Source of the DNA: Candidatus Electrothrix sp. GW3-4
Lineage (GTDB): Bacteria > Desulfobacterota > Desulfobulbia > Desulfobulbales > Desulfobulbaceae
Reading direction: 5' to 3'
DNA length: 32,000 nt
Assembly (NCBI RefSeq): GCF_037902255.1
Contig: NZ_CP147990.1
Coordinates: 1,620,001 to 1,652,000, forward strand
Positions 2,619 through 19,276 of this stretch are shown here, one piece after another; position 1 is the first letter of the stretch, and the number at the start of each line of letters is the position of its first letter. The position numbers and the translations under genes are program-made. The notes beneath the pieces were generated by a model. That model was given only the letters and a program-made list of their open reading frames with translations. It made no database searches and was not told the DNA's origin.

Positions 2619-4274
2619 ATGATACGATCCCAAGTAAAAACACTTGTTGACCAATGTTTCCAGCAGGGCGTGGACCAAGGCCTCTGGTCTGATGCTGCCG
2701 CAAATATCTATAACGTGGAAGTGCCCCGCCATGAGGGGCAAGGTGATTTTTCCACCAACTTTGCTATGGTGCTGGCTGGCAAGGAAAAACGCAATCCCCG
2801 TGAAATCGCCGGGCAGCTGGTGGACTTACTAAACAAGGATGAGGACTTGCTGGATAAGGTGGAAATCGCTGGTCCGGGCTTTGTGAATCTTTTTCTCAGG
2901 CCTTCGGTCTGGAGCACCGTCCTTGCACCTATCAGCGAGCAGGGCAAGGCCTTTGGTCTGTCCGATATCGGTCAGGGGAAAAAGGTGCTGGTAGAGTTTG
3001 TCAGTGCCAACCCTACCGGACCGCTCAGTGTGGGCCACGGTCGTAATGCCATCCTCGGGGATACCATTGCCCGCCTGCTCAAGGCCACTGGTCATGATGT
3101 CAGCCGAGAGTATTATTTCAATAATGCTGGTCGCCAGATGCGGGTGCTGGCCGACTCCCTGCGGGCACGCTATCTGGAACGACTGGACCTGGAAAATGAA
3201 TTTCCGGAAGATGGCTACCAAGGAGATTATATTTACGAGATCGCCCAGGGGATGATTGATGAGGCCGGGGCCAATTTTCAGGAGGCGGAGCAGGATTTCT
3301 TCCGTAAACGGGCCCAGGATGCCATCTTTGCTGATATTGATGCTACCCTGAAGCGCATTGGTATTGCCTTTGACTCCTATTATAATGAGCACACCCTGTA
3401 CGAGGAAGGAAAGATTGAGGATGTGGTCACAGAACTGCGGGCAAAGGGATTGGTGTATGAGCAGGATGAAGCGACCTGGTTTAAGACCACTGAATTCGGT
3501 GAACAGCAGGATCGGGTGATTATCAAAAATACTGGTGAGCCCACCTATCGTCTACCGGACATTGCTTATCATCGCGAAAAATTTCGCCGTGGCTTTGACT
3601 GGATGATCAACGTCTTTGGGGCAGATCATATTGCCACGGTGCCCGATGTCCTAGCTGGTGTGGAGGCCTTGGGCTATGATAAATCCAAGGTCCATGTGGT
3701 CCTCTATCAGTTTGTCACCCTGCTCCGGGACGGCAAGCAGGTCAAGATGTCCACCCGTAAAGCCACCTTTGTCACCGTAGATGAGTTAGTGGATGAAGTG
3801 GGCGTTGATGCCCTCCGCTTTTTTTTCCTGATGCGCAAACCGGATTCTCAGCTGGAGTTTGATCTGGAGCTGGCCACAGCCCAGAGTCAGGAAAATCCGG
3901 TCTATTATGTCCAGTACGCCCATGCCCGACTCTGCTCCATTGCCCGGATGGCAACGGAAAAGGGTGTTGCTCTGCCTGTTCTTGCCGAAACCGATCTTTC
4001 ACCCTTACAGGAGGAGGAAGAGCACCAGCTGCTCAAGACCCTGGCCTCCTACCCGGCCTTGGTTGCAGATGCTGCCACTGACCTGGCTCCCCATCGGATT
4101 ATCTTTTTTCTTATGGAGCTGGCCGGGAATTTCCATTCCTTTTATAATAAGCATAAGGTGGTGACCGAGGAGCAGCAGCTCACCGCAGCACGGCTCTGTC
4201 TCTGTCAGGGCATTAAGACTGTGCTGGCTAATGGACTGGACTTAGTTGGGCTGACAGCACCTGAGAGGATGTAG
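2619..4274 (+). CDS. argS: Arginine--tRNA ligase
   Basis: It is 551 aa long. The class I HIGH-type motif (SANPTGPLSVGHGRN), a KMSK-type motif (VKMSTRK) and full-length ArgRS-like sequence (DFSTNFAM, GEPTYRLPDIAYH, DALRFFFL) are all present. Confidence 0.97.
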   Translation: MIRSQVKTLVDQCFQQGVDQGLWSDAAANIYNVEVPRHEGQGDFSTNFAMVLAGKEKRNPREIAGQLVDLLNKDEDLLDKVEIAGPGFVNLFLRPSVWSTVLAPISEQGKAFGLSDIGQGKKVLVEFVSANPTGPLSVGHGRNAILGDTIARLLKATGHDVSREYYFNNAGRQMRVLADSLRARYLERLDLENEFPEDGYQGDYIYEIAQGMIDEAGANFQEAEQDFFRKRAQDAIFADIDATLKRIGIAFDSYYNEHTLYEEGKIEDVVTELRAKGLVYEQDEATWFKTTEFGEQQDRVIIKNTGEPTYRLPDIAYHREKFRRGFDWMINVFGADHIATVPDVLAGVEALGYDKSKVHVVLYQFVTLLRDGKQVKMSTRKATFVTVDELVDEVGVDALRFFFLMRKPDSQLEFDLELATAQSQENPVYYVQYAHARLCSIARMATEKGVALPVLAETDLSPLQEEEEHQLLKTLASYPALVADAATDLAPHRIIFFLMELAGNFHSFYNKHKVVTEEQQLTAARLCLCQGIKTVLANGLDLVGLTAPERM

Positions 4275-4294
4275 CCCAAAAAATAATGAAAAAA

Positions 4295-4330
4295 GGAGGA
4301 GTATCTCAAATATATTTGAGATACTCCTCC
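4295..4330. terminator. Bidirectional intrinsic terminator between convergent argS and the rhodanese gene
   Basis: It is a perfect 36-nt palindrome, GGAGGAGTATCTCAAATA|TATTTGAGATACTCCTCC. An A-run lies on the left (4286-4294) and T/A-rich sequence on the right. It sits 21 nt after the argS stop and 35 nt after the minus-strand stop at 4365-4367. Confidence 0.7.
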
Positions 4331-4364
4331 TGAGTATAAAACATCGCCTGATGAGGCAGTTTGT

Positions 4365-4730
4365 TTACTTTTCTTCCACAGGGTATTCTTCTCTGTTTTC
4401 CTGGCGGAGCCATTTTTTCCATACGCCTTTAAGCGCATAAACTTCTTTGATTCTTTTTTCTTCGATCAATGTGCGTGCCAAACTGGCACTGCTTCCTTCA
4501 TTGTTTCAGGCGCAGTAAATAACCAGCTTTTTATTCTCGCTCTCCTTGGTAATACCGGGCAGCCATTCATCAATGGAGTCTGCTGCTGTCCGTATTGCAC
4601 CTTTGATTTTGAATTCACTGGATTTCCAGTCTTTACCAGAGCGGGCATCCATAATAATGACCTCACCTGAGCCCATTGCAGCCTTGAGTTCCTCTTTGCT
4701 TATGCGTGGAGCCTCAGCAGCAAGAACGAT
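4365..4730 (-). CDS. Single-domain rhodanese-like sulfurtransferase with an in-frame TGA (candidate selenocysteine) at 4506-4508
   Basis: My manual translation reads ...ISKEELKAAMGSGEVIIMDARSGKDWKSSEFKIKGAIRTAADSIDEWLPGITKESENKKLVIYCA[TGA]NNEGSSASLARTLIEEKRIKEVYALKGVWKKWLRQENREEYPVEEK*, and it looks like rhodanese on both sides of the TGA in a single frame. The start is uncertain. The in-frame options are ATC at 4730 (AAGAGG 7 nt upstream, directly after an in-frame TAA) or ATG at 4676, which would truncate the domain. The track lists only an out-of-frame 66-aa ORF here. Confidence 0.6.
4475..4489 (-). promoter_or_regulatory. SECIS-like hairpin downstream of the in-frame UGA
   Basis: The minus-strand RNA forms GUGCCA-GUU-UGGCAC: a 6-bp perfect stem with a G/U-containing apical loop. 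The stem begins 16 nt after the UGA, so the loop starts 22 nt after it. That is within the spacing I recall for bacterial SECIS elements. Confidence 0.45.
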
Positions 4731-4884
4731 AAATTAACCTCTTTCAAAGCAAAAGTTTTTTTCTCACACATGGTGTGAGGGGGGCATGGATTTCAGTATG
4801 CGTCGTTGTCAGCTTTGGTGAAAAATGGTATCCTTTCTTGCAAATAAATTGCACTGGTTGTATTTACCTTAACGTTCTTGAATA

Positions 4885-5625
4885 ATGAAAAAAACACATG
4901 CTGCTATAACTGGCAAAGGGTCGCCGTTATCCAAGTATCAGGACGTAATCATCGGCAATCGCTCATTATTTTCCTTCTTGTACTATGAGTGGTGCCAGTT
5001 ATTAGGTCCAATTCCAGGGGCACTTGGAATGATTCTGCGCAAATTATTTTGGCCTGCTCTGTTTGCCAGCTGTGGAAAAGGATGCATGTTTGCAGCTGGT
5101 ATCGTCCTACGCCAGCCTGGTAAAATCCATCTTGGTGATGCCGTGGTCCTCAGTGAGGGATGCATACTTGATGGCCGACATGGAACCGAGTCTGTCTCTA
5201 TCCGTCTTGGCAATAATGTTATTCTCTCTAATGATGTGATGATTTCATGTAAAAATGGCACCGTCACTCTTGGGAATAACTGCGGCGTGAATTCCAGGAG
5301 CATTATTCAGTCCACCAATAACTGCCCTGTGGTCATCGGGCCGGATTGTATTATTGGCCAGCAATGTTTTCTTGTTGGGGGAGGAAGTTATCATTATGAT
5401 CGTTTGGATATCCCCATCCGAGAGCAGGGAATACGGGCCGATGGTGGTGTTCAGCTTGAGGAAGATGTCTGGCTCGGTGGGAATGTCACTGTGCTTGGTG
5501 GGGTGAAGATGGGCAAGGGAAGTATGGCCGGAGCTGGCGCTCTCATGACCCGTTCTGTTGCTGCCTACACAATTTCACTGGGTACGCCAGCCCGGGTTGT
5601 CAAGAATCGCAAGGGTAAGGCATGA
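4885..5625 (+). CDS. Hexapeptide-repeat (left-handed beta-helix) acyl/acetyltransferase, WcaF-like
   Basis: Hexapeptide-type repeats run through the C-terminal two thirds (IRLGNNVILSNDVMISC, VTLGNNCGVNS, VVIGPDCIIGQQC, VWLGGNVTVLGGVKMGKGSMAGAGALM). Its stop overlaps the next gene's start (ATGA at 5622-5625). Confidence 0.85.
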   Translation: MKKTHAAITGKGSPLSKYQDVIIGNRSLFSFLYYEWCQLLGPIPGALGMILRKLFWPALFASCGKGCMFAAGIVLRQPGKIHLGDAVVLSEGCILDGRHGTESVSIRLGNNVILSNDVMISCKNGTVTLGNNCGVNSRSIIQSTNNCPVVIGPDCIIGQQCFLVGGGSYHYDRLDIPIREQGIRADGGVQLEEDVWLGGNVTVLGGVKMGKGSMAGAGALMTRSVAAYTISLGTPARVVKNRKGKA

Positions 5626-6608
5626 GTGGAAAGAGAAAAAGGCAGCTTTTCCTTGTCATTAAAATATTATTCAGTTCCACCTTGATGTTTATCCTCTATC
5701 GGAGGATTCCTTTGGAGGACCTGCAAGAGGTGCTGGCATCACTGAACTATCTTTATTTTCTGCCGATTTGCCTCCTGCTCTTTATGAACACGGTGCTGAG
5801 CGCCCTCAAATGGCGTCTCTTGCTCGCTGCCGATGGGGTTAATATCCCTCTCTCAACCCTGACAATGACCTATCTGATCGGGAGCTTTTATAACCTTTTT
5901 CTTCCCTCAAATATAGGGGGAGATTCGTACCGAATCTACGATATAGCTCAAAAAAGCAGAGACAGCGTACGCTCAGCTGCCTCTGTGTTTGCCGATCGAT
6001 TTTCTGGTTTTCTCGCCCTTGTTTCACTCAGCTTGGTCTCCTCCATCCTCGTAGCGCGTGAATTTAACAATCTGTTCTTTTTTCTCGCTCCCTTGCTGAT
6101 TTTTCTAATTATGCTTGTTGTGCTCATTGCCTTAGTCAGGGAAAAACCTGTACGGAGTCTCCTCAGGTTGACCCGCTTAGATCGTTTTCCCTTTCTGGTT
6201 AAGCTTACTGAAAAGTTTTTTCTCTCTTTTCAGTGCTATGGCGCTGATCGTAAATTGTTGAGCCAGGTTATGCTGATTTCTTTTGTTTTTCAATTATCAG
6301 TTATTCTCATCGTGCAACTACTGGCCCTTTCTCTCCATGCTTCGGTATCTTTTTTTTACTTTAGTGCCTTTGTACCGCTCATTACGCTCATGGAAGCTCT
6401 CCCCGTTTCTATGTTTGGGCTGGGGTTACGAGATATGGGCTATGTATTTTTCTTTGGCTGGGTCGGCATGACCGATGTGCAGACCAGGTCCCTTGCCCTC
6501 CTTTTTCTGGCAACTTCTGTCGGGTATTCCTTGATAGGAGGCGTTGTCTACCTGCTGCGCCTTTTGACTTCTGAACCGAAGAGACAGGTGGATGGTTCGG
6601 TGAGTTGA
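5622..6608 (+). CDS. UPF0104 / LPG-synthase-TM 'flippase-like' polytopic membrane protein
   Basis: It is a 328-aa protein with many hydrophobic segments. The family-typical motif ...LIGSFYNLFLPSNIGGDSYRIYD... is present. It is translationally coupled to the acetyltransferase. Confidence 0.8.
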   Translation: MSGKRKRQLFLVIKILFSSTLMFILYRRIPLEDLQEVLASLNYLYFLPICLLLFMNTVLSALKWRLLLAADGVNIPLSTLTMTYLIGSFYNLFLPSNIGGDSYRIYDIAQKSRDSVRSAASVFADRFSGFLALVSLSLVSSILVAREFNNLFFFLAPLLIFLIMLVVLIALVREKPVRSLLRLTRLDRFPFLVKLTEKFFLSFQCYGADRKLLSQVMLISFVFQLSVILIVQLLALSLHASVSFFYFSAFVPLITLMEALPVSMFGLGLRDMGYVFFFGWVGMTDVQTRSLALLFLATSVGYSLIGGVVYLLRLLTSEPKRQVDGSVS

Positions 6609-6666
6609 TAATATTAATAAGATAAAGCTCGGGAGGCCGTGGAGCTCTTCGGTTTCCAGGATAGCT

Positions 6667-8754
6667 ATGCTGAATAATCGTTTTTTTCTCAAAGCACTCG
6701 TGTCTCTTGGTCTTTCCCTGTTTCTTCTTGCCTTGCTCATCAACAGTATTGATGGGGCAGCAGAGCTTGCGATCAGGCCAAAACTCTTCTCCGTACTGGC
6801 GCAGACCTCTGGGAATGCTCTCTTGCTCTACATGTTGGCAAGTGTTCTGCAAACCTTTTTTCGAACAATTCGTTACAGGGTTCTTCTGAAAAGTTCTCTC
6901 AAGAATAATGAAGTGCTGCCTGGTTTGTCACGCCTCTTCATGGTCACGATGAGCAGGAACATGTTTACGGACATGCTTCCGGCCCGCTTGGGTGAGCTGA
7001 GCTACATTACTATGTTGAATCTGGGGTTTAAGGTCAAAGCAGACGCCTGCCTGAGTTCGCTTGCGCTCTCCTTTGTTTTTGACCTGATCGCCTTGGCTCT
7101 CTTGCTCCTGGGGATGATCGGTTACCAGATGTTCCTTTCAGGAATTGAATTATGGCTGGTCGCAACCTTAATCATTTTATTAGTTATCTGCGGCCTTCTT
7201 TTGTTGATTCTTTTTCCGACCCTTCAACGAATGAGTGAATATCTGTCCAGCAAATTTTCCAGTAATGGCAAAAGGGACGGGAAAGCAGGAAAGCTGATCA
7301 AGCTTCTCCACGACACCTCTCTCTCTTTACAGAAGGCCGCCCAAAGAGGCATTGTAGGTCGGGTACTGATTCTTTCCTTGGGAGTACGTATTGCCAAATA
7401 TACAGGCCTGTACCTGCTCTTTTGTGGAGTGGTGGACTCTTTTCCCGATATAACCAGAGAGCTTGTTGATGTCGTTATCGCCCTGATCAGTGCTGAAGCC
7501 GGAGCTGGCTTACCTATCCCAACCTTTATGAGTTTCGGCACCTATGAAGCGGGCGGAACCCTGGCTCTCATTGCCCTGGGAGCAAGTAAGGCAAGCTCTG
7601 TTGTGGTGATGCTTGCTTTACATATCTGGAGCCAATGTATTGACTATGCCTTTGGTATCGGAGCCACAGTCCTTTTCACCCTATCAGTCATTGACCGGGA
7701 ATTGCTTTTTAAGAAAGCGAGAAATGATGGAAGAAGACAATGGAAAATATTGTCCTGTGCGCTGCTCATGCTCTTTGGGGGAATCTTTTTTTTAGGGGGA
7801 CAGTTATGGAAAATACATAAAACCGGCTGGGTTCATCCGCCAAGCCCTGGTAAGGCCATATCCATATCGAGTACTGCTGAGCGAAGAACCAACCCTGTCT
7901 TTGATCACCTGCACGGCTTTGTCATCTGGAGCAGTAATAGGTTCGGCAATCATGATCTTGTCATGTTAACCTTGCCGGAATTAGAGTTGACCCGCTTGAC
8001 AACAGATCCGTACACAGAGTATTTTCCACGAATTTCACCGGACGGCAGCAAGGTGCTTTTTTGTCGGTCTCAGGAACCTTGGGTGTCCCAGAGAAATCAA
8101 TTCGCCTGGGATACCTGGATCCTGGATTTAGCAAGCGGTACGACCCACTTGTTAGCCAAAAACGCCAATACGCCGACTTGGTCTGCTGACGGCGAAAAGA
8201 TCTATTTTCTTCGTCAAGCAAATCAGTTTGTGGAATATACCCTTGCCAATCAAAAAGAAATTGTGGTATTTGAAACAGGGAAGAATCACTCACTGAATGC
8301 CTCTATTTATCTTGAAACCCCTGTCTGGAGCGATACCAGACAGACCTTGGCTGTGACGCTCCGGGGCGGAGCAAGAGGGACCTTTGTTATCAATAAAGAT
8401 AAATCGCTCCAACAAGTCGGCAAGGGATGTCAATTAAATTGGGCCCCTGATTCCTCGTTCCTTTATCTGGTTGACCATACGAAAACAGGTAGCAACGCGT
8501 TTTTTATAGTTGATCCTGAAACGTTGGAGAAAAAGCTTTGGTTCGATGCCCCTGGTGCATTTAGTCATGAATACTTCCCGAAGGTTTCCAATACAGGCGA
8601 TATACTGGTCTTTGGTGCAAGTACAGGAGGACATGAGCACGATAGAGCGGATTATGAAATTTTTCTCTGGCCTATCGGAACCCCTATGGGCAACACAGCA
8701 AGACTGAGCTTTCATACTGGCAATGATAATTGGCCGGATATTTTTTTGTATTAG
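6667..8754 (+). CDS. Fusion protein: N-terminal UPF0104 flippase-like membrane domain plus C-terminal TolB-like (PD40/WD40-like) beta-propeller
   Basis: The N-terminal ~375 aa are polytopic and carry FTDMLPARLGELSYI, which parallels the GGD..R motif of the upstream paralogue. The C-terminal ~300 aa carry repeated PD40-type motifs: YFPRISPDGSKVLF, NTPTWSADGEKIYF, NWAPDSSFLYLV, EYFPKVSNTGDILVF, and a terminal RLSFHTGNDNWPD. Confidence 0.75.
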   Translation: MLNNRFFLKALVSLGLSLFLLALLINSIDGAAELAIRPKLFSVLAQTSGNALLLYMLASVLQTFFRTIRYRVLLKSSLKNNEVLPGLSRLFMVTMSRNMFTDMLPARLGELSYITMLNLGFKVKADACLSSLALSFVFDLIALALLLLGMIGYQMFLSGIELWLVATLIILLVICGLLLLILFPTLQRMSEYLSSKFSSNGKRDGKAGKLIKLLHDTSLSLQKAAQRGIVGRVLILSLGVRIAKYTGLYLLFCGVVDSFPDITRELVDVVIALISAEAGAGLPIPTFMSFGTYEAGGTLALIALGASKASSVVVMLALHIWSQCIDYAFGIGATVLFTLSVIDRELLFKKARNDGRRQWKILSCALLMLFGGIFFLGGQLWKIHKTGWVHPPSPGKAISISSTAERRTNPVFDHLHGFVIWSSNRFGNHDLVMLTLPELELTRLTTDPYTEYFPRISPDGSKVLFCRSQEPWVSQRNQFAWDTWILDLASGTTHLLAKNANTPTWSADGEKIYFLRQANQFVEYTLANQKEIVVFETGKNHSLNASIYLETPVWSDTRQTLAVTLRGGARGTFVINKDKSLQQVGKGCQLNWAPDSSFLYLVDHTKTGSNAFFIVDPETLEKKLWFDAPGAFSHEYFPKVSNTGDILVFGASTGGHEHDRADYEIFLWPIGTPMGNTARLSFHTGNDNWPDIFLY

Positions 8755-8872
8755 GCCTTGATAATTCATTGTTATGTTTTTATGTGTTCATACCAAGGTC
8801 TGACTCAGCAACCCCGAAAAAAATGAACCTAAAAAGCCCCTCTTAAATTGAATACTGATAAAAAGGAAGAGA

Positions 8873-9838
8873 ATGAAACTCTCTGTCGTAATACCTATCT
8901 ATAATGAAGAAGAAAATATCAATCTCCTTTACGATGAGTTAAAAGGGGTTCTTAAGACCATAGAGCATGAACACGAGATTGTCTTTGTCGATGACGGCTC
9001 AAGTGATGCAAGTTTGACCTTGCTGGAAAAAATACAACAGCTGGATAAAGATGTAGTGGTTGTGTCCTTTCGCCGCAACTTTGGTCAGACCGCTGCTATG
9101 TCTGCGGGTTTTGATTATGCCACCGGTGATGTGATCGTGACTATGGACGGGGATATGCAAAATGACCCCCATGATATCCCCATATTCCTGGAAAAAATGG
9201 AAGAGGGGTATGAACTGGTCAGCGGCTGGCGCTACGACCGTCAGGACCCTTTTCTTAATCGGCGCCTCCCCTCTATGATTGCCAACAAGATCATCTCAGT
9301 GGTGACAGGTGTCCATTTGCATGACTACGGATGTACTCTAAAAACCTTCAGAAAAGAGATTACCCAGGGGATCCGGCTCTACGGAGAAATGCATCGATTT
9401 ATCCCAGCTATTGCCAGTGGTGTGGGCGGAAAAATTACTGAGGTCAAGGCCAATCACCGCCCTCGGCGTTTTGGCACCTCAAAATACGGCATTTCCAGAA
9501 CCCTCCGTGTTGTATTGGATCTGATGACGGTTAAATTTTTGCTCAGCTATGCCACTCGCCCCATTCATGTTTTTGGTATGCTAGGACTTGTCAGTGGAGG
9601 CTCAGGATTTCTTATCGCCCTGATAATGACTGTTCAGCGAATGTTTTTTGAGGTTCCCATGGCAAACAGGCCTCTCCTTTTACTGGCAATCCTACTTATC
9701 CTCATGGGAATGCAATTTATCTATATGGGCTTATTAGGAGAGCTTCAGGTCAGGACCTATCATGAATCGCAAAAAAAGCCAATTTATGTGGTACGGAGCG
9801 TTTTCGGCTGTCAGGATCAAGAAGAAAAAAACAACTGA
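8873..9838 (+). CDS. GT2 polyprenyl-phosphate glycosyltransferase (GtrB/ArnC/DPM1-like) with two C-terminal TM helices
   Basis: Supporting motifs are LSVVIPIYNEEENI, VFVDDGSSDAS, FRRNFGQTAAMSAGF, TMDGDMQNDP and YGEMHRFIP. The two C-terminal hydrophobic helices are typical of lipid-phosphate sugar synthases. A strong SD (AAAGGAAGAG) precedes the start. Confidence 0.9.
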   Translation: MKLSVVIPIYNEEENINLLYDELKGVLKTIEHEHEIVFVDDGSSDASLTLLEKIQQLDKDVVVVSFRRNFGQTAAMSAGFDYATGDVIVTMDGDMQNDPHDIPIFLEKMEEGYELVSGWRYDRQDPFLNRRLPSMIANKIISVVTGVHLHDYGCTLKTFRKEITQGIRLYGEMHRFIPAIASGVGGKITEVKANHRPRRFGTSKYGISRTLRVVLDLMTVKFLLSYATRPIHVFGMLGLVSGGSGFLIALIMTVQRMFFEVPMANRPLLLLAILLILMGMQFIYMGLLGELQVRTYHESQKKPIYVVRSVFGCQDQEEKNN

Positions 9839-10893
9839 TGAGTGATGAACAGGTTTCAGCGGTCAATATAGTTATTCCGAACTGGAATGGTCTGCGTTTT
9901 CTTCCTGCTTGTTTAAGCTCAATCGAACAGCAGGACTTTGTATCCCGACAAGTTACCGTTGTTGATAACGGCTCAAGCGATGGCTCCTTGGAGTATTTGC
10001 GCGAAAATCAACCGCAGGTCCGAGTCATTGAACTGCCGGAAAATAGGGGGTTCAGTGCGGCAGTCAACAAAGGGATCCTGAGTAGCAGCGCTCCCTTTGT
10101 TTTTTTACTGAATAATGACACAGAATTAGATTTTTCTTGTTTGTCTCATCTTGTGGACGCAGCTAAAGATCTGAAGGCTTTTGATTTTTTTTCACCTAAA
10201 ATGCTGAGTTTTCATAACCGTACCGTCTTAGACGGGGCAGGTGACGGGTATCTCCGCGGCGGGGCAGGGTATCGTTTGGGGACAATGGAGCTGGATGGCC
10301 CTGTATATAATAGGCCTGGCCCAACCTTTGGTGCCTGCGCAGGGGCAGTTCTGTACCGCCGCTCACTGTTTGATCATATTGGTCTGTTTGATGAAGATTT
10401 TTTTGCCTATCTCGAGGATGTTGATTTAAACCTGCGTATCAATTATTCAGGCAGGCGAGGCTATTACGTACCAGCTGCTAAGGTTTATCATATTGGCAGT
10501 GCATCCAGTGGTTCCAAGATTAATCCTTTTACAATCCGTCTTTCCACCCGTAATTCCTGCTACGTACTGCTGAAAAATTACCCAACAGGGCTTTTCTTCC
10601 GCCTGTTGCCGGTTATTGTAATCTATCAATTTTTCTGGTTGCTTTTTGTCATAAAAAAGAGGCAGATTTTAGCCTATCTGCAAGGGATCGGGAAAGCCGT
10701 TATCGGTATGAGAAAAATGCGAAAGAAACACAGAGAAATCAGTTTATATGATTCTCTGACTTCTGCTGAATTTGCTGATCGCTTATCTCTAGCGGAAAAG
10801 GTGGTCGTAGAGTCCATCATGCGTAGACGAAGTGCGGAAGGGAAAAATAATTGGCTGCTGAATTTCTATCTTGTTTTCTTTTGTAGAAAGTAA
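9838..10893 (+). CDS. GT2 glycosyltransferase (WbbL/RfbF rhamnosyltransferase-like)
   Basis: Supporting motifs are VIPNWNG, VVDNGSSDGS, NRGFSAAVNKG, LLNNDTE, CAGAVLYRRSLF..GLFDEDFFAYLEDVDLNLR. The start overlaps the upstream stop (TGATG). Confidence 0.85.
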   Translation: MSDEQVSAVNIVIPNWNGLRFLPACLSSIEQQDFVSRQVTVVDNGSSDGSLEYLRENQPQVRVIELPENRGFSAAVNKGILSSSAPFVFLLNNDTELDFSCLSHLVDAAKDLKAFDFFSPKMLSFHNRTVLDGAGDGYLRGGAGYRLGTMELDGPVYNRPGPTFGACAGAVLYRRSLFDHIGLFDEDFFAYLEDVDLNLRINYSGRRGYYVPAAKVYHIGSASSGSKINPFTIRLSTRNSCYVLLKNYPTGLFFRLLPVIVIYQFFWLLFVIKKRQILAYLQGIGKAVIGMRKMRKKHREISLYDSLTSAEFADRLSLAEKVVVESIMRRRSAEGKNNWLLNFYLVFFCRK

Positions 10894-11008
10894 GTTATGG
10901 ATAATACTTTTGTGAAACCTCAGACTGTATGGGATAAAAAAAAATATTTTGTTCCCAATAATTATAGTCCTGCTCGCCATATGCTTTTTTTATTCTGTCA
11001 ATTCTAGT

Positions 11009-12067
11009 TAGGAGTTACGCAGTTGGTAGAGATCCGTTAGTATAGCAGCATGAACAAGCCCAAGATAACAGAATACGATTACATAGATTTCCTTATCGGC
11101 ACGCAAAAAGTTTATAGCTGCACGGAAGCGGAACGAGTTAATCCAGGTGAAACCTCTGGTCCGTCGCACGATGCGTACACCCGGCAGCTGCACCGCCTTT
11201 TTCCAAGCACTGATCGACTTTGGATCGAAGCTAAAGAGCATGTCGACCTGAAGAAAGGGTACCTGATTGCCGACGACAGCACCTCTGGACAAGTTTTACA
11301 GTCGTAAAATTAAACTGGTAACCCGCCATTGGTCGGGTAAACACAAAAAGGTCGTCTCTGGGATCAACCTATTGACTCTGCTGTGGACCGATGACGAGTG
11401 GTATATCCCTATAGATTACAGGAGTTACAACAAGTCCGTCGATGATTTAACGAAAAATGATCACTTTCGCACTATGCTGTGGACAGCTGCGGAACGGGGA
11501 GTTAGCCCAGAAGCTGTACTTTTTGACAGTTGGTATTCCGGCCTGGATAATCTTAAGCTCATCCGATTGCTCGGGTGGCTATGGATGACTCGCTTGAAGG
11601 GTAACCGTCTGATCAATCCCGATCGATCAGGAAATATTGCCGTTAGTCAGGCAAAAATTTCAGAACACGGCGAGGTAGTTCATCTTAAAGGATACGGTAT
11701 GATTAAAGTATTCAGGACTGTCAGAACAGACGATGACGCTGAATATTGGGCGACCAATGACCTGAAGATGAACGACCTTGAACGACTAAAATACTCCGAA
11801 CTTAGCTGGATGATTGAAACATATCATCGAGGTATCAAACAGTTCTGTGGTGCCGAACGTTGTCAGGCTCGTTCCGAACGGGCGCAGCGAAATCACATCG
11901 AATTGGCATTACGTGCTTTTTTACGCATAGAGTATCATTGTTTCGTTAAAGGGATTTCTTGGTTCGAGGCAAAGACTTCAATCATCCGTGATGCTGGTCG
12001 GGCTTATTTAGCTCAGCCGATTTATACGCTTGATCCTATCAACCTTTATGCAACTGCGTAACTCCTA
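11009..12067 (+). mobile_element. Insertion sequence (~1.06 kb) with 15-17 bp perfect terminal inverted repeats and a frameshifted IS701-like DDE transposase
   Basis: The left end is (TA)GGAGTTACGCAGTTG at 11009-11025 and the right end is CAACTGCGTAACTCC(TA) at 12051-12067; the two are exact reverse complements. The outermost TA could be part of the IR or a 2-bp target duplication. The transposase stop codon lies inside the right IR. Confidence 0.8.
11050..12061 (+). pseudogene. IS701-like (IS4-superfamily) DDE transposase split by a 1-nt frameshift near 11284
   Basis: ORF1 ends ...LIADDSTSGQVLQS*. Skipping the T at 11284 joins the two ORFs as ...LIADDST|LDKFYSRKIKLVTRHWSGKHKKVVSGINLLTLLWTD..., about 336 aa in total. 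The C-terminal WMIETYHRGIKQFCGAERCQARS..RNHIELALRAFL resembles the IS701/IS4 YREK region. There is no slippery heptamer at the junction. Confidence 0.75.
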
Positions 12068-12150
12068 TTTAATCTGGTTATTCTTTCAGTTACATACAAT
12101 CTTTTCTTTCTTCAGAAAAAATAAAGAGAAACAGAGAGTTTGATGTCGTT

Positions 12151-13830
12151 ATGGAGGTAAAAGAATATTGCAAATTATCTGTTATTATTCCAATATACAA
12201 TGAAGAAAAGACGCTCAGTAAGGTGGTCAATGCTGTCCAGAGAGTTGAACTTCCTCTTGCGAAAGAAATTGTCATTGTTGATGATGCCTCAACGGACTCA
12301 ACCCGCCAGGTTATTGAACAGTTTCCCGATAAGAATTTTGTAAAGATTTTTCATGATAAGAACCAGGGAAAAGGGGCTGCATTGCGCTCCGGTTTTGCCA
12401 GAGCAACCGGAGATGTCATCTTAATTCAGGATGCCGATTTGGAGTATAATCCAGCTGAGTACCCCAAGTTACTGAAGCCCATATTGGACGGTAAGGCCGA
12501 TGTGGTTTATGGGTCGCGATTTATCGGTTCAGATGCCCATCGGGTCCTCTATTTTTGGCACATGGTAGGTAACCGTCTTTTAACACTTTTTTCAAACACA
12601 TGCTCCAATCTTAATTTAACAGATATGGAGACCTGCTATAAGGTGTTCAAAAAAGATGTGATTGGGCGGATTGAGTTAGAGGAAAATCGTTTTGGAATTG
12701 AACCCGAAATGACGGCAAAGATAGCCCGGTTAGCACAAGATCAAGAGATTGCCATCTATGAGGTTGGGATATCTTATTTTGGACGTACTTATAGTGAAGG
12801 CAAAAAAATTGGTATTAAAGATGCGTTTCGTGCTGCATGGTGTATCTGGAAATATAATACAACGACAACGGCAAAAATAATTAAGTACGTTACTCATGGT
12901 GGCATTGTCGCTCTGTCTCAGTTTCTTTTGATGGTCCTTCTTGTTCAAGGAGCCAGTTTAACGACAGCGTATGAGCTGAATGTAGCAAATATACTGAGCA
13001 TTGAAGGGGCCTTACTTATAGCTTTCTTGCTTCATTCAACCCTCACCTGGCATGTTCGGTTTATCTCAATCCAAAAAGTTATAAAGAGTCTCCTCGAATT
13101 TCACCTTGTTACGAGTATAAGTATCCTGACGAGAATCGGCAGCTTTTACTTTTTGAATTTCCTCGGACTCAATTATATTCTTAACCTTACCATCGGAATT
13201 ATCGCCGCTGTTTTAATTAATTACTTTGGTTATGAAAAAATTGTTTTTAATGGAGAGAGGGAGAAGCAAGAACCTTTTATGGAACCCATTCTCCGCAGAA
13301 TGAGGATCAGGAGGGTACTTCAAGAAATCAGGAAAAAACCTAAATCTGCTCTACTTGACGTGGGATGCGGTTTTAATCATGCATTTCTATCTGCTATAGG
13401 ACCCTATATCGGAAGTGGTACCGGGATTGATTTTAAGGTTCAAGAAAAAAAATCTGCTAATATTTCTACTATTCAAGCTCGATTGGATAAAAAACTGCCC
13501 TTTGAAAACGCTACCTTTGATACCGTAACAATGCTTGCCGTACTTGAGCATCTCGATCATCCATTAGCAATTACACGCGAAATAACGAGGGTGCTTAAAC
13601 CTGGTGGGAAATTAATCCTCACCGTGCCTGGAAAACGGGCAAAACCTGTGCTTGAATTCCTTTCCTTTAAATTGGGAATTGTTAACCGCGCCGAGATTGA
13701 AGATCATAAAAAATATTACGACCTTGAGGAATTAAAAGAGCTTATTCGACAAATCGACCCCTTGGAGATTATTGAACATAGACATTTTCAGTTTGGCATG
13801 AATAATTTTTGCATAATACAAAAGAAGTAG
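12151..13830 (+). CDS. Tri-domain protein: GT2 glycosyltransferase, GtrA-like membrane domain and class I SAM-dependent methyltransferase
   Basis: The GT2 domain shows LSVIIPIYNEEKTL, VIVDDASTDST, QDADLEYNP and GSRF. The GtrA-like hydrophobic segment spans roughly residues 245-365 (IIKYVTHGGIVALSQF...NYFGYEKIVF). The methyltransferase domain shows LLDVGCGFN (motif I), FDTVTMLAVLEHL and LKPGGKLILTVP. Confidence 0.8.
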   Translation: MEVKEYCKLSVIIPIYNEEKTLSKVVNAVQRVELPLAKEIVIVDDASTDSTRQVIEQFPDKNFVKIFHDKNQGKGAALRSGFARATGDVILIQDADLEYNPAEYPKLLKPILDGKADVVYGSRFIGSDAHRVLYFWHMVGNRLLTLFSNTCSNLNLTDMETCYKVFKKDVIGRIELEENRFGIEPEMTAKIARLAQDQEIAIYEVGISYFGRTYSEGKKIGIKDAFRAAWCIWKYNTTTTAKIIKYVTHGGIVALSQFLLMVLLVQGASLTTAYELNVANILSIEGALLIAFLLHSTLTWHVRFISIQKVIKSLLEFHLVTSISILTRIGSFYFLNFLGLNYILNLTIGIIAAVLINYFGYEKIVFNGEREKQEPFMEPILRRMRIRRVLQEIRKKPKSALLDVGCGFNHAFLSAIGPYIGSGTGIDFKVQEKKSANISTIQARLDKKLPFENATFDTVTMLAVLEHLDHPLAITREITRVLKPGGKLILTVPGKRAKPVLEFLSFKLGIVNRAEIEDHKKYYDLEELKELIRQIDPLEIIEHRHFQFGMNNFCIIQKK

Positions 13831-13899
13831 ATTATCCTACAAGCAGTCCCAAACACTCTTTGAGTGAGAGCCAGCTTCTTTTTTTAACCCCACAACGCT

Positions 13900-14730
13900 A
13901 TGGCTGAACTTGCCGTCATTATTGTTACCCATAATTCTCAAGATGTGCTGCCTCGCTGTTTGGCTGCTCTTCGCCAGCAAACGATGCAGGCTGATATCGT
14001 CTTGGTAGATTCAGGGTCAAAGGATGCTTCTTATCTGAATGCCTACAAGGATTGGGTTGGAATCAGTGTTCTTTTTTTAGAAAATATTGGATTTAGTCGA
14101 GCTAATAATATCGGCTATCAAAGGGTATATCAAACAGCAAAATTTATCCTTTTTCTTAATCCAGACGCCTTTCTCTCAGAGAACACCCTCGAATATGCCC
14201 TTGCCGTTCTTAAAAAGAATAATAAAGTCGGATGTATAGGAGGGAGGCTGTTGGGCTATGACCAGAGTAATGATCAACCTACAGGCCTTTTGGATTCCAC
14301 CGGGGTATTCAGGAAATGGTATGGCTGTTGGTATGACCGAAGTCAAGGCGAGAAGGATGCCGGGCAGTATCTGATCCAAGAAGACGTCCCCGCTCTTTGT
14401 GGGGCCTTTCTTTTTTGCCGTCAGGCTATGCTGGCTCAGCTTTCCATAGAGCTGGGGTCTGATAACGAGGTTTTTGATCCAGACTTCTTTCTATATAAGG
14501 AAGATATTGAACTCTGCCTGCGAATCAGTAAATTGGGATGGAGGATTGTTTACTCTCCGGCAATACAGCTCTACCATTGCAGGGGCTGGCAGAAAAAACG
14601 ACAACAGATTTCCTACCAACAGCGTTTGATAGCGGCTCGAAGTGAGCTCATCTTGTATAAAAAACACCTTTCCATATATATTTTCTGGGCCTGGTTTAAG
14701 TATGTGCTGGTACGTTGGTTCAAAATATAG
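13900..14730 (+). CDS. GT2 glycosyltransferase (rhamnosyltransferase-like)
   Basis: Supporting motifs are AVIIVTHNS, LVDSGSKD, NIGFSRANNIG, FLNPDAF, CGAFLFCR and FDPDFFLYKEDIELCLR. Confidence 0.8.
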   Translation: MAELAVIIVTHNSQDVLPRCLAALRQQTMQADIVLVDSGSKDASYLNAYKDWVGISVLFLENIGFSRANNIGYQRVYQTAKFILFLNPDAFLSENTLEYALAVLKKNNKVGCIGGRLLGYDQSNDQPTGLLDSTGVFRKWYGCWYDRSQGEKDAGQYLIQEDVPALCGAFLFCRQAMLAQLSIELGSDNEVFDPDFFLYKEDIELCLRISKLGWRIVYSPAIQLYHCRGWQKKRQQISYQQRLIAARSELILYKKHLSIYIFWAWFKYVLVRWFKI

Positions 14731-14743
14731 CTGCTGACTGGCG

Positions 14744-15691
14744 ATGAACAAAAATCAGACCGTCTCCTTAATTATACCCACCTTAAACGCTGAGCCCTGG
14801 CTTGCTGGTCTACTCTCTTCCTTGGTGCGACAGACCCTCTTGCCTGATGAAATCTTATTGATCGATTCAGGATCAACCGATGGGACACTTGCTATTGCGG
14901 AAGGCTATATACGCAGGTATCCCGTTATCCGTCTTTATCAAATTCAGCAACAAGACTTTGATCATGGCGGAACCCGTACCATGGCGGCCCGGAAAACAAC
15001 AGGGGAGATCTTGATCTTTATGACCCAGGACGCTGTGCCAGCAGAGGACCGCGCCCTTGAGCTGCTGATTCGCTCATTTGCAAGCAATCAACAGCTTGCC
15101 GCAGCCTATGGCAGGCAACTTCCTGTACAGGATGCGACCTTCTTTGGTGAGCATCTCCGCCTTTTTAATTATCCAGAAAAACCACAGTTGCGTTGCCAGC
15201 AGGATTGGGGCATCTACGGCTTTAAGACGGTTTTTATTTCTAATTCCTTTGCAGCATGGCGGCGGGACCTGTTGAGGGAACAAGGGTATTTTCCAGGACA
15301 GTTGCTCTTTGGGGAAGACACTGTAGCGCTGGCAAAAATGCTTGAAAAGGGATATTATGTAGCATATGTGAGTGATGCTGCGGTGTATCATTCTCATAAC
15401 TATTCAATTGCCCAGGATTTTAAGAGGTATTTTGACATTGGCGTCTTGCATGAGACACAGGCTCAATACCTTTTGCAGCATGGGGGGCCAGCTGGAGCTG
15501 GCAGAAAATATGTCCTGTCGGAGTTGACGTTGCTCGCCAAGAAAAAAAAATATTATTTACTTCCAGAGGCATTGCTCCGTAACCTAAGCAAGTTTATTGC
15601 CTATAAGGTAGGGAGAAGGTTCAAGATGCTTCCCAGTGATTGGCCAGCTCGTTTAAGTATGAATCCTGGCTGGTGGTCCAAGTCTCTATAA
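14744..15691 (+). CDS. GT2 glycosyltransferase
   Basis: Supporting motifs are VSLIIPTLNAEPWL, ILLIDSGSTDGT, FDHGGTR, FMTQDAVP and GEDTVALAKML. Confidence 0.8.
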   Translation: MNKNQTVSLIIPTLNAEPWLAGLLSSLVRQTLLPDEILLIDSGSTDGTLAIAEGYIRRYPVIRLYQIQQQDFDHGGTRTMAARKTTGEILIFMTQDAVPAEDRALELLIRSFASNQQLAAAYGRQLPVQDATFFGEHLRLFNYPEKPQLRCQQDWGIYGFKTVFISNSFAAWRRDLLREQGYFPGQLLFGEDTVALAKMLEKGYYVAYVSDAAVYHSHNYSIAQDFKRYFDIGVLHETQAQYLLQHGGPAGAGRKYVLSELTLLAKKKKYYLLPEALLRNLSKFIAYKVGRRFKMLPSDWPARLSMNPGWWSKSL

Positions 15692-15693
15692 TT

Positions 15694-17121
15694 ATGTCTC
15701 CTGCCTTATCCTGGAATCTGCGTCAGCGCAGTTCAATTATTTATAAACTGCTCCATATTCTTGACTGTTCGTTAGTTTGTGGCTATCTTTGGTTGCTTGT
15801 TTTCTTATACAAGGTTCCTTGGAGCCGTTATTATACCTGGTTGGAAGTTGTTGTCTTCACCTTAGCCTTTCTCTGTTTTCAATACCTTCAGCTGTACCGT
15901 TCCTGGCGCGGCTGGAAACTCTACCTTGAATTTTTTGTTATTCTTAAGGCTTGGGCCTCTGTTGTTGGTCTCCTGCTTTTTTATTTCTTTATTTTTAAGG
16001 TATCTGAAGGATATTCCAGGGTCGTTTTTATCTTATGGTCACTCACTACCCCTTTTTTAATTTTTTTTTCCCATCTTCTTGTTCGTCAGTTCTTACGCCA
16101 TTATCGAACACAGGGGAAAAATATTCGTCATGCCGTTATTGTTGGTGCCGGTGATCTCGGGCTTAAAATGGCCATGCAATTGGACGCCATTCCTTGGGCG
16201 GGTATCGAAATTGTAGGTTTTTTTGATGATAAACTTCAGGGGAATGCCTTAAACAGCACCGGGAAACCTCTGCTTGGCCGAATCGATAATATCCACGAAT
16301 ATCTTCTCTCTAATGACATTGATTATGTGTATATAGCCTTGCCCATGCGGGCTGAGCGGAAAATTTTTTGGATTTTGCGTGAATGCCGTGATCTTGGCGC
16401 ACAAATTTTCCTCGTGCCAGACCTCTATATCTTTGGCCTACATCACGCAGAAATTCAATCCGTTGGTGATATGCTGGTTCTGAATTTCAATCCGGTCTCT
16501 GGCTGGAAACGAGGCTTTGATATTGTCTTTTCATTGACGATTCTTCTGCTCAGCAGCCCGGTTATGTTGCTTATCATGCTGCTTATTAAGGTTGACAGCA
16601 AAGGGCCAATTTTTTACCGACACCGCAGGATTACAGCCACAGGGCGCGAGTTCGGATGTCTGAAGTTCAGAACTATGGTTGTTGATGCAGATAAAAAATT
16701 AAACGAGCTGTTACAAGAAAATCTGTCCCTTGCTGAGGAATGGAATAGAAGCTTTAAACTCAAAGATGACCCACGAATTACCAGGGTAGGGCGTTTTCTT
16801 CGCAGGACGAGCCTTGATGAGTTCCCGCAATTTTTTAACGTCCTGAAAGGAGAAATGAGCGTGGTTGGAGCACGCCCCATTGTTGGGAGAGAGCTTAAGG
16901 AATATTATAAAGGGAATGGTGAACAGAGTGCTGGCCGTTATGTCTCAATGAAACCAGGTATTACTGGTCCCTGGCAGGTAACAGAACGAAGTGATATAGA
17001 AAATTATAAGCAAAGAATCGAGCTTGATGATTGGTATGTCCTCAATTATTCGCTGCTCTGCGATCTAAAAATTATCCTTAAGACTATTCGTTGTATGTTT
17101 ACGGGCAAAGGGGCGTATTAA
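15694..17121 (+). CDS. Polyprenyl-phosphate hexose-1-phosphate transferase (WcaJ/WbaP-type priming enzyme, bacterial sugar transferase family)
   Basis: The N-terminal TM bundle is followed by a Rossmann-like region (AVIVGAGDLG). The C-terminal catalytic domain shows KRGFDIVFS, KGPIFYRHRRI, KFRTM, DPRITRVGRFLRRTSLDEFPQFFNVLKGEMSVVGARP and KPGITGPWQV. I prefer the ATG at 15694 (MSPALS), 2 nt after the upstream stop, over the track start at 15640. Confidence 0.9.
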   Translation: MSPALSWNLRQRSSIIYKLLHILDCSLVCGYLWLLVFLYKVPWSRYYTWLEVVVFTLAFLCFQYLQLYRSWRGWKLYLEFFVILKAWASVVGLLLFYFFIFKVSEGYSRVVFILWSLTTPFLIFFSHLLVRQFLRHYRTQGKNIRHAVIVGAGDLGLKMAMQLDAIPWAGIEIVGFFDDKLQGNALNSTGKPLLGRIDNIHEYLLSNDIDYVYIALPMRAERKIFWILRECRDLGAQIFLVPDLYIFGLHHAEIQSVGDMLVLNFNPVSGWKRGFDIVFSLTILLLSSPVMLLIMLLIKVDSKGPIFYRHRRITATGREFGCLKFRTMVVDADKKLNELLQENLSLAEEWNRSFKLKDDPRITRVGRFLRRTSLDEFPQFFNVLKGEMSVVGARPIVGRELKEYYKGNGEQSAGRYVSMKPGITGPWQVTERSDIENYKQRIELDDWYVLNYSLLCDLKIILKTIRCMFTGKGAY

Positions 17122-17348
17122 TCGTATCCGTGCATTTCCCTGGCTGGCGTGACTTCGGCACAGGGCTCGTCCTGCGCCAGGGGGCATCATCTTGATAGCC
17201 GCCAATTTCGAGAATCATGATATATGTGCTCGTTGACGTACTTTGAAGAGTAGCCGCCCTGTATCGTAGCGACCACTTCATCTATAAATAAACTCCTGGA
17301 ACAGCTGGCCCGCACCCATCCTGTCCAGCCAGAACCCGACCCATAAAA

Positions 17349-19273: not shown

Positions 19274-19276
19274 GTC

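What the first reader, a model, noticed from the sequence alone, without database searches (positions are those of the whole stretch)
4365..4730. Rhodanese gene continuous only through an in-frame UGA, with a SECIS-like hairpin: candidate selenoprotein missing from the ORF track
The minus-strand frame reads as a normal single-domain rhodanese both before the TGA at 4506-4508 (EVIIMDARSGKDW...KIKGAIR...KKLVIYCA) and after it (NNEGSSASLARTLIEEKRIKEVYALKGVWKKW). Both halves are in the same frame. The TGA falls in the active-site loop. My by-eye alignment to E. coli GlpE (...VMCYHGNSS..., recalled from memory) puts it at or within one residue of the catalytic Cys, and a Cys lies two residues upstream (C-A-U). 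A perfect hairpin, GUGCCA-GUU-UGGCAC, starts 16 nt downstream. Rhodanese-related sulfurtransferases have been reported as a bacterial selenoprotein family, so the class is not new, but this gene would be mis-annotated as two fragments or as a pseudogene. A second oddity is the start. No ATG, GTG or TTG lies between the upstream in-frame TAA and the start of the domain, leaving only ATC at 4730 with a well-spaced AAGAGG.
Basis: partly seen in the sequence, partly recalled or inferred. Interest (0 to 1): 0.65.

Follow-up and report, generated by a model that had tools for sequence, protein, structure and literature searches.

The report
Truncated remnant of known seleno-rhodanese gene
This is a copy of an already catalogued selenocysteine-containing rhodanese gene whose recoding signals are intact, but a deletion has removed its promoter, start codon and export signal, so it is most likely a dead remnant.

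Summary
The minus-strand frame 4723-4365 encodes one rhodanese domain interrupted only by TGA at 4508-4506. A perfect hairpin starts 16 nt downstream. The protein matches the curated NCBIfam selenoprotein family NF041203 'rhodanese_LYCAU' (136.5 bits, cutoff 115). This family is listed in selenoproteome reviews as the CxU rhodanese form. Of 81 relatives with a readable motif, 79 carry TGA at this column and 2 carry Cys. The core five-pair stem forms in 55 of 55 Sec members, with compensatory changes. The loop G is invariant. The Sec lies two residues after the canonical catalytic Cys, not on it. The odd start has an ordinary explanation. Homology to every relative begins at 4723, about codon 20. 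Upstream DNA is the conserved intergenic region, including the -35 box and spacer of the ancestral promoter. The deletion starts exactly where the -10 box should be. It removed the -10 box, an upstream permease gene or its remnants, the ribosome-binding site, the ATG and 19 signal-peptide codons. Two glycines conserved in 85/86 and 86/86 relatives are also mutated. The best reading is a recently inactivated pseudogene of a known selenoprotein family.

The parts
4365..4723 (-). Remaining coding sequence of the LYCAU seleno-rhodanese, from about codon 20 (…LAAEAPRISKEEL…) to the TAA stop at 4367-4365. The frame is intact apart from the Sec codon.
   Evidence: Translation. BLASTN homology to L001, L005, L007, L010 and L011 begins at 4723. 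NF041203 scores 136.5 bits against a cutoff of 115. Pfam PF00581 spans both halves.
4506..4508 (-). In-frame TGA, the selenocysteine codon of the C-A-U motif.
   Evidence: TGA is conserved in all close relatives. Among 81 unique relatives with a readable motif, 79 have TGA and 2 have Cys at this column.
4512..4514 (-). TGC, the Cys of LYC. It aligns with the canonical rhodanese catalytic Cys, two residues before the Sec.
   Evidence: HMMER alignments to 6mxv and 6pfz rhodanese domains. In 9 relatives this position is also TGA, giving a UxU motif.
4473..4492 (-). Bacterial SECIS hairpin. The core is GUGCCA-GUU-UGGCAC at 4489-4475. It extends by G4492-C4473 and C4491-G4474, with A4490 bulged. 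The apical loop starts 22 nt after the UGA and its first base is G, followed by U.
   Evidence: Fold. The stretch AGCAGTGCCAGTTTGGCACGCA is identical in all four sequences aligned, the window plus L001, L005 and L007. The core 5-bp stem pairs in 275 of 275 cells of 55 sequences, with UA->CG six times and GC->AU once. The loop G is invariant although its codon encodes S, R, G or W. It meets the published bSECIS constraints (PMC13188914).
4723..4725 (.). Deletion junction (±2 nt). Conserved intergenic DNA (…TTTATCGTT) is joined to codon ~20 of the rhodanese (TTGCTGCTGAGG…).
   Evidence: Alignments A1, A4 and A5. BLASTN breakpoints.
4725..4747 (-). Remnant of the ancestral operon promoter: -35 TTGAAA (4747-4742) plus a 17-nt spacer. 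The -10 hexamer is missing; CTTGCT stands in its place.
   Evidence: At the homologous site the scanner calls TTGAAG-17-TATTAT or TATCAT in L010, L001 and L011. It calls no minus-strand promoter in the window between the gene and the neighbouring hexapeptide-transferase gene. Alignment.
4452..4454 (-). AGA (Arg) where 85 of 86 relatives have Gly (the K-G-[L/Y/F] position).
4422..4424 (-). GTA (Val) where 86 of 86 relatives have Gly (second G of the rhodanese L-K-G-G-W motif).
4294..4331 (-). 17-bp hairpin followed by a T-run: an intrinsic-terminator-like site after the rhodanese stop, between it and the convergent argS (2619-4274, + strand).

Best explanation
The locus is an orthologue of the known periplasmic 'LYCAU' rhodanese selenoprotein (NCBIfam NF041203, the CxU form of rhodanese-related sulfurtransferase). 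In intact relatives the mRNA is made from a sigma-70-like promoter that usually also drives an upstream APC-type permease gene. The product has a signal peptide. The UGA two residues after the canonical catalytic Cys is decoded as selenocysteine when SelB with Sec-tRNA(Sec) binds the GUGCC-NGKNN-GGCAC hairpin 16 nt downstream. In this window the Sec codon and SECIS are intact. However, a deletion of roughly 0.3-1.6 kb (the size depends on the ancestral state) removed the -10 box, the 5' UTR, the permease gene or its remnant, the ribosome-binding site, the ATG and the first 19 signal-peptide codons. What remains is a promoter-less, start-less fragment without an export signal. It has begun to collect damaging substitutions (G->R and G->V at near-invariant glycines). 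It is most likely a recently formed pseudogene, not an overlooked functional selenoprotein. Shown here: family membership, Sec/Cys pair, SECIS covariation, deletion breakpoints, loss of start codon, signal peptide and -10 box. Inferred: lack of expression, and the SelB mechanism (from established Sec biology).
For: NF041203 hit above the curated cutoff. The family is listed as a CxU selenoprotein in PMC9312934 and PMC13188914, and the UxU variant in PMC1976440. TGA and the downstream frame are conserved in L001-L011. After the UGA, dN/dS among the relatives L001, L005 and L007 is 0.02-0.06. At the Sec column, 79 relatives have U and 2 have C. Stem pairing is 100% with compensatory changes, and the third-codon positions C33 and G39 and the loop G35 are invariant. 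All relatives have an N-terminal signal peptide. Window homology starts at 4723. The window keeps the -35 and spacer but not the -10 of the conserved TTGAAG-17-TATYAT site. All supported genes from 4885 to 21662 lie on the + strand, so no co-directional gene upstream could supply read-through transcription. The window breaks 2 of 22 columns that are at least 97% conserved, whereas 76 of 86 relatives break none and only the three most divergent break two or more. For the part after the UGA, dN/dS of the window against relatives is 0.10-0.14, compared with 0.02-0.06 among relatives. The partner permease is also decayed or absent in other cable-bacterium genomes, which fits an operon being lost in this clade.
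Against: The remaining 118 codons have no frameshift or extra stop, and the SECIS is untouched. Branch-specific substitutions (8 nonsynonymous, 5 synonymous) do not differ statistically from those of intact relatives. Two of 8 window changes hit conserved columns, against 0 of 18 in L001, L005 and L007; my own hand-calculated Fisher test gives p of about 0.09. So decay, if real, is recent. An in-frame ATC with a Shine-Dalgarno-like AAGAGG 7 nt upstream, or the internal ATG at 4676, could in principle start translation of a cytoplasmic product. The promoter scan is a consensus match only. I found no independent assembly of this junction, so an assembly artefact is not excluded.
Confidence: 0.75

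Rival explanations
1. The truncated gene is still functional. It is translated from the non-canonical ATC at 4730 (with AAGAGG as Shine-Dalgarno) or from ATG 4676, and yields a cytoplasmic Sec-rhodanese without a signal peptide.
For: The frame, Sec codon and SECIS are intact. AAGAGG lies 7 nt before the ATC. Overall pairwise dN/dS against relatives is still 0.10-0.20.
Against: AAGAGG…ATC is homologous to the -35/spacer of the promoter in relatives, so it was inherited rather than evolved as a start site. The -10 box is deleted and no minus-strand promoter-like site remains. Every relative examined is exported, so a cytoplasmic form would be unprecedented in this family. G->R and G->V hit two near-invariant glycines. 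Starting at ATG 4676 would delete the conserved PR(I/M)SKEEL start of the domain.
Confidence: 0.12
2. The deletion is an assembly or binning artefact. The real genome carries an intact signal-peptide-bearing selenoprotein gene like its relatives.
For: No second assembly confirms the junction. The only other contig carrying the identical ArgS (L088, Logan SRR28154589) ends 49 nt after argS, before the rhodanese. This region varies in structure among relatives.
Against: Both flanks are collinear with relatives (hexapeptide transferase and argS). The junction is clean, with no Ns or repeats. The window-specific G->R and G->V substitutions are independent of the junction. Independent deletions of the upstream permease in L007, L010 and L011 show that real deletions are common here.
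Confidence: 0.1
3. The TGA is a true stop or a sequencing error for TGC/TGT, so this is an ordinary truncated or Cys-type rhodanese.
For: Gene callers end relatives at this codon. Two relatives have Cys here.
Against: TGA is present in 79 of 81 relatives from many phyla. The downstream frame is under strong purifying selection, and a covarying hairpin sits at a fixed distance.
Confidence: 0.02

Closest known systems
NCBIfam NF041203 'rhodanese_LYCAU', rhodanese-related (seleno)protein. [quoted passage not shown]
   Same: It scores above the equivalog cutoff (136.5 against 115). It has the same (V/L)(I/L/F)YCA-U motif, the same SECIS position and the same C-terminal …YPVEEK tail.
   Different: This copy lacks the promoter -10 box, ribosome-binding site, start codon and signal peptide. 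It has Arg and Val at two near-invariant glycines. The cable-bacterium clade has UNNEGSS rather than the commoner UPNEGTS after the Sec.
UxU double-Sec variant of the same family, first reported in the Olavius algarvensis delta-1 symbiont (PMC1976440).
   Same: Same family, with a SECIS at the same position. I saw it in 9 of 81 relatives with a readable motif, for example L045, L049, L063, L064, L079, L080 and L081.
   Different: The window has Cys (TGC), not Sec, at the first position.
Single-domain rhodanese sulfurtransferases GlpE and PspE (PF00581).
   Same: Same fold. The Cys of LYC aligns with their catalytic Cys, and the G-x-x-x-x-x-L-x-G-G-W C-terminal motifs are shared.
   Different: The active-site loop is 2-3 residues longer and contains a Sec at +2. 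The match to the GlpE model is only 18.5 bits against a cutoff of 102. The catalytic chemistry of the CxU form has not been tested.
Other Sec-containing rhodanese forms: UxxS, UxxG and TsoB UxxxxU (PMC13188914).
   Same: A rhodanese domain combined with selenocysteine.
   Different: The Sec position and motif differ. TsoB scores only 16.3 bits, and only for a relative.

Membership tests
NF041203 rhodanese_LYCAU selenoprotein (CxU form) | Whole-protein HMM score at or above the curated equivalog cutoff (115 bits) | tested here: met
   136.5 bits, E 3.7e-40, with U read as C. Relatives score 148-165 bits.
NF041203 rhodanese_LYCAU selenoprotein (CxU form) | L-Y-C-A-U motif with an in-frame TGA at the U column and a Sec/Cys pair among homologues | tested here: met
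   The window has VIYCA-TGA. At this column 79 relatives have U and 2 have C; motif counts are CAU 65, UAU 8 and CAC 2.
NF041203 rhodanese_LYCAU selenoprotein (CxU form) | Bacterial SECIS: upper stem of 4-16 bp, apical loop of 3-9 nt with G in its first two positions, loop 16-37 nt after the UGA (PMC13188914) | tested here: met
   6-bp stem (8 bp with one bulge), loop GUU, loop starting 22 nt after the UGA. The stem pairs in 55 of 55 family members with compensatory changes, and the loop G is invariant.
NF041203 rhodanese_LYCAU selenoprotein (CxU form) | Complete gene: start codon, ribosome-binding site and N-terminal signal peptide, as in all relatives | tested here: not met
   Homology starts at codon ~20. 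Upstream in frame are TAA and TGA, with no ATG, GTG or TTG. The signal-peptide region is absent.
NF041203 rhodanese_LYCAU selenoprotein (CxU form) | Conservation of family-invariant residues | tested here: not met
   20 of 22 columns that are at least 97% conserved are kept. G->R (85/86) and G->V (86/86) are broken.
Sec-decoding trait (needed for any selenoprotein) | selA, selB, selC and selD in the same genome | not testable with these tools
   The 32-kb window has no tRNA or Rfam hit and no sel gene among its ORFs. The genome itself is not in the searchable collections. Indirect support: related Electrothrix and Desulfobulbaceae genomes keep the UGA, the SECIS and a selected downstream frame.
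Canonical rhodanese sulfurtransferase (GlpE/PspE type, PF00581) | Rhodanese domain with Cys at the start of the active-site loop | tested here: met
   PF00581 E 4.9e-12. The Cys of LYC aligns with the loop Cys of 6mxv and 6pfz.
Canonical rhodanese sulfurtransferase (GlpE/PspE type, PF00581) | Short active-site loop of the sulfurtransferase type; score above the GlpE or PspE equivalog cutoffs | tested here: not met
   A 3-residue insertion in the loop relative to 6mxv. The window scores 18.5 bits on GlpE against a cutoff of 102 and does not match the PspE model; only the E. laxa relative does, at 17.6 bits against 102.
Expressed gene (as opposed to pseudogene) | A promoter or a co-directional upstream gene that supplies transcription | tested here: not met
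   The conserved TTGAAG-17-TATYAT site of relatives has lost its -10 box in the window. No minus-strand promoter-like site lies upstream of the gene. Upstream genes are on the opposite strand. This is a consensus scan only, not an expression measurement.

The most novel reading that the evidence does not exclude
The truncated copy is not dead. It would be transcribed from a cryptic promoter and initiated at AUC 4730 (or AUG 4676), producing a cytoplasmic CxU seleno-rhodanese without a signal peptide. That would be a relocalised, non-AUG-initiated selenoprotein arising in a cable bacterium after loss of its permease partner.
Probability: 0.07. Interest if true: 0.5.

Novelty: already known. Interest (0 to 1): 0.2.

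Why it matters
The practical value lies in annotation. This family is still truncated at the UGA in most public records: about 50 of 59 database relatives end at …YCA. A scan that simply reads through the TGA would call this copy a selenoprotein, whereas comparison with relatives shows it has lost everything needed for expression and export. It also documents that cable-bacterium relatives (Candidatus Electrothrix and other Desulfobulbaceae) carry a Sec-rhodanese. The searchable literature does not mention this. The operon it belongs to appears to be eroding in that clade. None of this changes what is known about selenocysteine decoding or about rhodaneses.

Tried and rejected
- Rfam at gathering thresholds and ARAGORN on the whole window found nothing, so there is no tRNA-Sec or curated SECIS model hit.
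- The thermodynamic test of the hairpin region alone was not significant (z = -0.83). I relied on comparative data instead.
- I looked for the window's own genome or a second assembly of the junction. The ArgS exact-match look-up found only a 5.4-kb Logan contig that stops before the rhodanese. The genome contigs and metagenome-contig scans found no closer relative than the fetched loci L001-L008 (86-89% amino-acid identity for their proteins), and none with the same junction.
- I first thought AAGAGG…ATGATTTCG in relatives marked the start of the upstream gene. This was rejected: in L001 and L005 that gene starts about 100 nt further on (ATGAAACGC…), and the conserved block is the promoter-like TTGAAG-17-TATYAT site.
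- Branch-specific N/S counts do not separate the window from intact relatives (8:5 against 6:7, 7:12 and 5:3).
- Gene neighbourhoods of distant members show no conserved partner other than the upstream permease (MsrAB, AhpC-like and HD-domain genes).
- Literature searches linking cable bacteria or Electrothrix to selenoproteins found nothing relevant.
- I did not search for Sec machinery with E. coli SelA or SelB queries. Hits would be dominated by close enterobacterial relatives, and the window's genome is not identifiable in the databases.

Full report
**1.

On the minus strand the frame reads …TAA-FIVLAAEAPRISKEELKAAMGSGEVIIMDARSGKDWKSSEFKIKGAIRTAADSIDEWLPGITKESENKKLVIYCA, then TGA, then NNEGSSASLARTLIEEKRIKEVYALKGVWKKWLRQENREEYPVEEK, then TAA. 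The TGA is at 4508-4506 and the final stop at 4367-4365. With the TGA read as a residue, Pfam Rhodanese (PF00581) covers both halves as one domain (residues 13-110 of 122, E 4.9e-12). The N-terminal fragment alone falls just below the gathering score and the C-terminal fragment scores nothing. The hairpin GUGCCA-GUU-UGGCAC is at 4489-4475, 16 nt after the UGA. No ATG, GTG or TTG lies between the in-frame TAA (4736-4734) and the domain. ATC is at 4730-4728 and AAGAGG at 4743-4738.

**2. It belongs to a genuine, already catalogued selenoprotein family**

- A search of 5.8 billion proteins returned 59 relatives. About 50 of them are 74-107 aa long, cover about 60% of the query and end exactly at …YCA. 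Gene callers stopped at the same TGA.
- Five relatives are full length (136-137 aa). At the U column they carry C (two proteins), Q, S or R.
- I fetched the DNA of close relatives L001-L008, which are Desulfobulbaceae or Electrothrix MAGs. They share the same neighbourhood: argS, the rhodanese, a hexapeptide transferase and LPG-synthase-like genes. All keep the TGA and the same downstream frame, with synonymous differences.
- After the UGA, dN/dS among these relatives is 0.02-0.06. The downstream part is therefore translated.
- A scan of one genome per species found 148 relatives. A metagenome scan added 52 more loci. Among 81 unique sequences with a readable motif from the fetched loci, the Sec column is TGA in 79 and Cys in 2. 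Motif counts are CAU 65, UAU 8 and CAC 2, with a few single variants.
- The taxa include Thermodesulfobacteriota, Nitrospirota, Methylomirabilota and Entotheonellaceae.
- The window protein scores 136.5 bits on NCBIfam NF041203 'rhodanese_LYCAU, rhodanese-related (seleno)protein', whose cutoff is 115.
- Reviews list this family as the CxU rhodanese form (PMC9312934; PMC13188914). The UxU variant was reported in 2007 (PMC1976440).

**3. The SECIS is real**

I aligned 55 Sec-containing members in codon register. The five core pairs (GUGCC with GGCAC) form in 275 of 275 cells. UA changes to CG in six sequences and GC to AU in one, and there are several G·U wobbles. The structure beats all 500 shuffles on percentage paired and on covariation score, and it beats every slid register.

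Three columns are invariant even though the protein does not demand it:
- a four-fold-degenerate Ala third position (C33);
- the third position of a codon that encodes L, V, T, A, G or M (G39);
- the loop G35, the middle base of a codon that encodes S, R, G or W.

The element meets the published bacterial SECIS constraints: a 4-16 bp stem, a 3-9 nt loop with G in its first two positions, and a loop 16-37 nt from the UGA (PMC13188914). In the window the loop begins 22 nt after the UGA. One Cys-form relative (L057) has lost the hairpin. Thermodynamic stability alone was unremarkable (z = -0.83).

**4. Position of the Sec**

HMMER alignments to solved rhodanese domains place the canonical catalytic Cys on the Cys of LYC (TGC, 4514-4512). 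The Sec is two residues later, in an active-site loop that is 2-3 residues longer than in GlpE-type enzymes. A C-x-U or U-x-U pair suggests selenylsulfide or diselenide chemistry. That is inference; the biochemistry of this family is uncharacterised (PMC9312934).

**5. The odd start is a deletion scar**

- Every relative begins with a signal peptide, MKKI(V/L)…LF(A/T)GS(L/F)AA(V)AAE(A/V)PR(M/I)SKEEL.
- BLASTN homology of the window to all relatives begins at 4723, which is codon ~20.
- The 160 nt between 4885 (start of the divergent hexapeptide-transferase gene) and 4724 align with the part of the intergenic region next to that gene in L001, L005, L010 and L011.
- That block contains a promoter-like site on the rhodanese strand, TTGAAG-17 nt-TAT(C/T)AT. 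The scanner calls it independently at the homologous place in L010 (3809-3837), L001 (1627-1655) and L011 (3699-3727).
- The window keeps the -35 box (TTGAAA, 4747-4742) and the 17-nt spacer (GAGGTTAATTTATCGTT). At the -10 position it continues with CTTGCT GCT GAG…, which is rhodanese codon ~20.
- The scanner finds no minus-strand promoter-like site upstream of the gene in the window.
The TAA and ATC lie inside that spacer.
- The deletion removed the -10 box, the 5' UTR, the upstream gene or its remnants, the AGGAGAAA ribosome-binding site, the ATG and 19 signal-peptide codons.
- All supported genes from 4885 to 21662 lie on the + strand, so no read-through transcription is available from a co-directional upstream gene.

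**6. Signs of decay in what remains**

The window has Arg (4454-4452) at a Gly conserved in 85 of 86 unique relatives, and Val (4424-4422) at a Gly conserved in 86 of 86. The second is the second G of the rhodanese L-K-G-G-W motif. Of 22 columns that are at least 97% conserved, the window breaks two. Seventy-six of 86 relatives break none, and only the three most divergent break two or more.

After the UGA the window has six private amino-acid changes, against one to three in L001, L005 and L007. Its dN/dS against relatives there is 0.10-0.14, compared with 0.02-0.06 among the relatives. The counts are small. Private changes total 8 nonsynonymous and 5 synonymous, which intact relatives also approach. 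I therefore treat this as supportive only. The deletion is the main evidence, and it is probably recent.

**7. Context: a conserved permease partner**

In L001-L005 a 401-416 aa polytopic membrane protein gene lies directly upstream, and in L001-L004 its stop overlaps the rhodanese start. tblastn finds a homologue directly upstream on the same strand in 67 of the 145 loci fetched. It has no Pfam or NCBIfam hit in the cable-bacterium clade. A 39-sequence profile matches APC-superfamily transporters: ApcT 3gi8 at E 1.4e-8, xCT 7ccs at 2.4e-7, and AdiC and LAT2 at about 1e-5. Fifteen of the 39 members hit PF13520 AA_permease_2.

The ancestral unit is thus an APC-type permease plus a periplasmic CxU seleno-rhodanese. 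In Candidatus Electrothrix laxa (L011/L141) and in L009 only the C-terminal remnant of the permease survives. L010 (E. aarhusensis) gave no tblastn hit but still aligns with the gene's 3' end, and L007 does likewise. In the window the permease is gone entirely. The operon appears to be eroding in this clade, which makes loss of the rhodanese itself plausible.

**8. Verdict**

This is a rhodanese read through UGA with a true SECIS, from a known selenoprotein family that is often mis-annotated. The Sec is at +2 from the catalytic Cys. This particular copy is most likely a non-functional 5'-truncated remnant (confidence about 0.75).

The rivals are a still-expressed cytoplasmic form started at AUC or AUG (about 0.12), an assembly artefact at the junction (about 0.10), and a true stop or sequencing error (about 0.02).

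I could not test the Sec machinery of this genome. The window holds no tRNA, no Rfam hit and no sel gene, and the genome is not in the searchable collections. Novelty: already known. Interest: low.

Noticed in passing
L001 1754-3004, L005 1844-3049 and 65 further fetched loci; absent from the window (expected between 4724 and 4885): A divergent APC-superfamily permease gene (400-470 aa) lies immediately upstream of the LYCAU seleno-rhodanese, on the same strand and often overlapping its start. This holds in 67 of 145 loci from several phyla. In cable-bacterium relatives it is reduced to remnants. I did not find this pairing in the passages of the four selenoproteome papers I read.
   Followed up: partly
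L045, L049, L063, L064, L079, L080, L081, L144 (motif Y-U-A/T-U): Nine of 81 relatives with a readable motif have a second in-frame TGA at the canonical catalytic-Cys position (UxU). This is the variant first reported in the Olavius delta-1 symbiont. The same single hairpin follows the second UGA.
   Followed up: partly
window 4294-4331: A 17-bp perfect-stem hairpin flanked by T-runs lies between the convergent argS (2619-4274, + strand) and the rhodanese remnant. It is probably a bidirectional intrinsic terminator.
   Followed up: no
window 11267-12061 (+): A DDE_Tnp_1 transposase ORF sits inside a long run of family-2 glycosyltransferase, sugar-transferase and LPG-synthase-like genes (4885-17121). 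Mobile-element activity in this region may relate to the local rearrangements.
   Followed up: no
L010 3640-4000, L011 3560-4000, L007 2480-3000: Independent internal deletions of the upstream permease gene leave its 3' end and, in L010 and L011, the upstream promoter region as well. The rhodanese stays intact. The interval between the hexapeptide-transferase gene and the rhodanese is a recurrent deletion site in this clade.
   Followed up: partly
window 23800-26235 (-), 26331-26870 (-), 17462-19273 (+): These ORFs encode a GGDEF-EAL protein, a TSCPD-domain protein and a Radical_SAM_N protein. They are ordinary annotations and none relates to selenium.
   Followed up: no
public protein records P0001-P0059: Most database entries for this family are truncated at the Sec codon and named 'hypothetical protein' or 'predicted/putative sulfurtransferase'. 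One example is the Candidatus Electrothrix laxa record P0013, at 88 aa. This is systematic mis-annotation of a known selenoprotein.
   Followed up: yes
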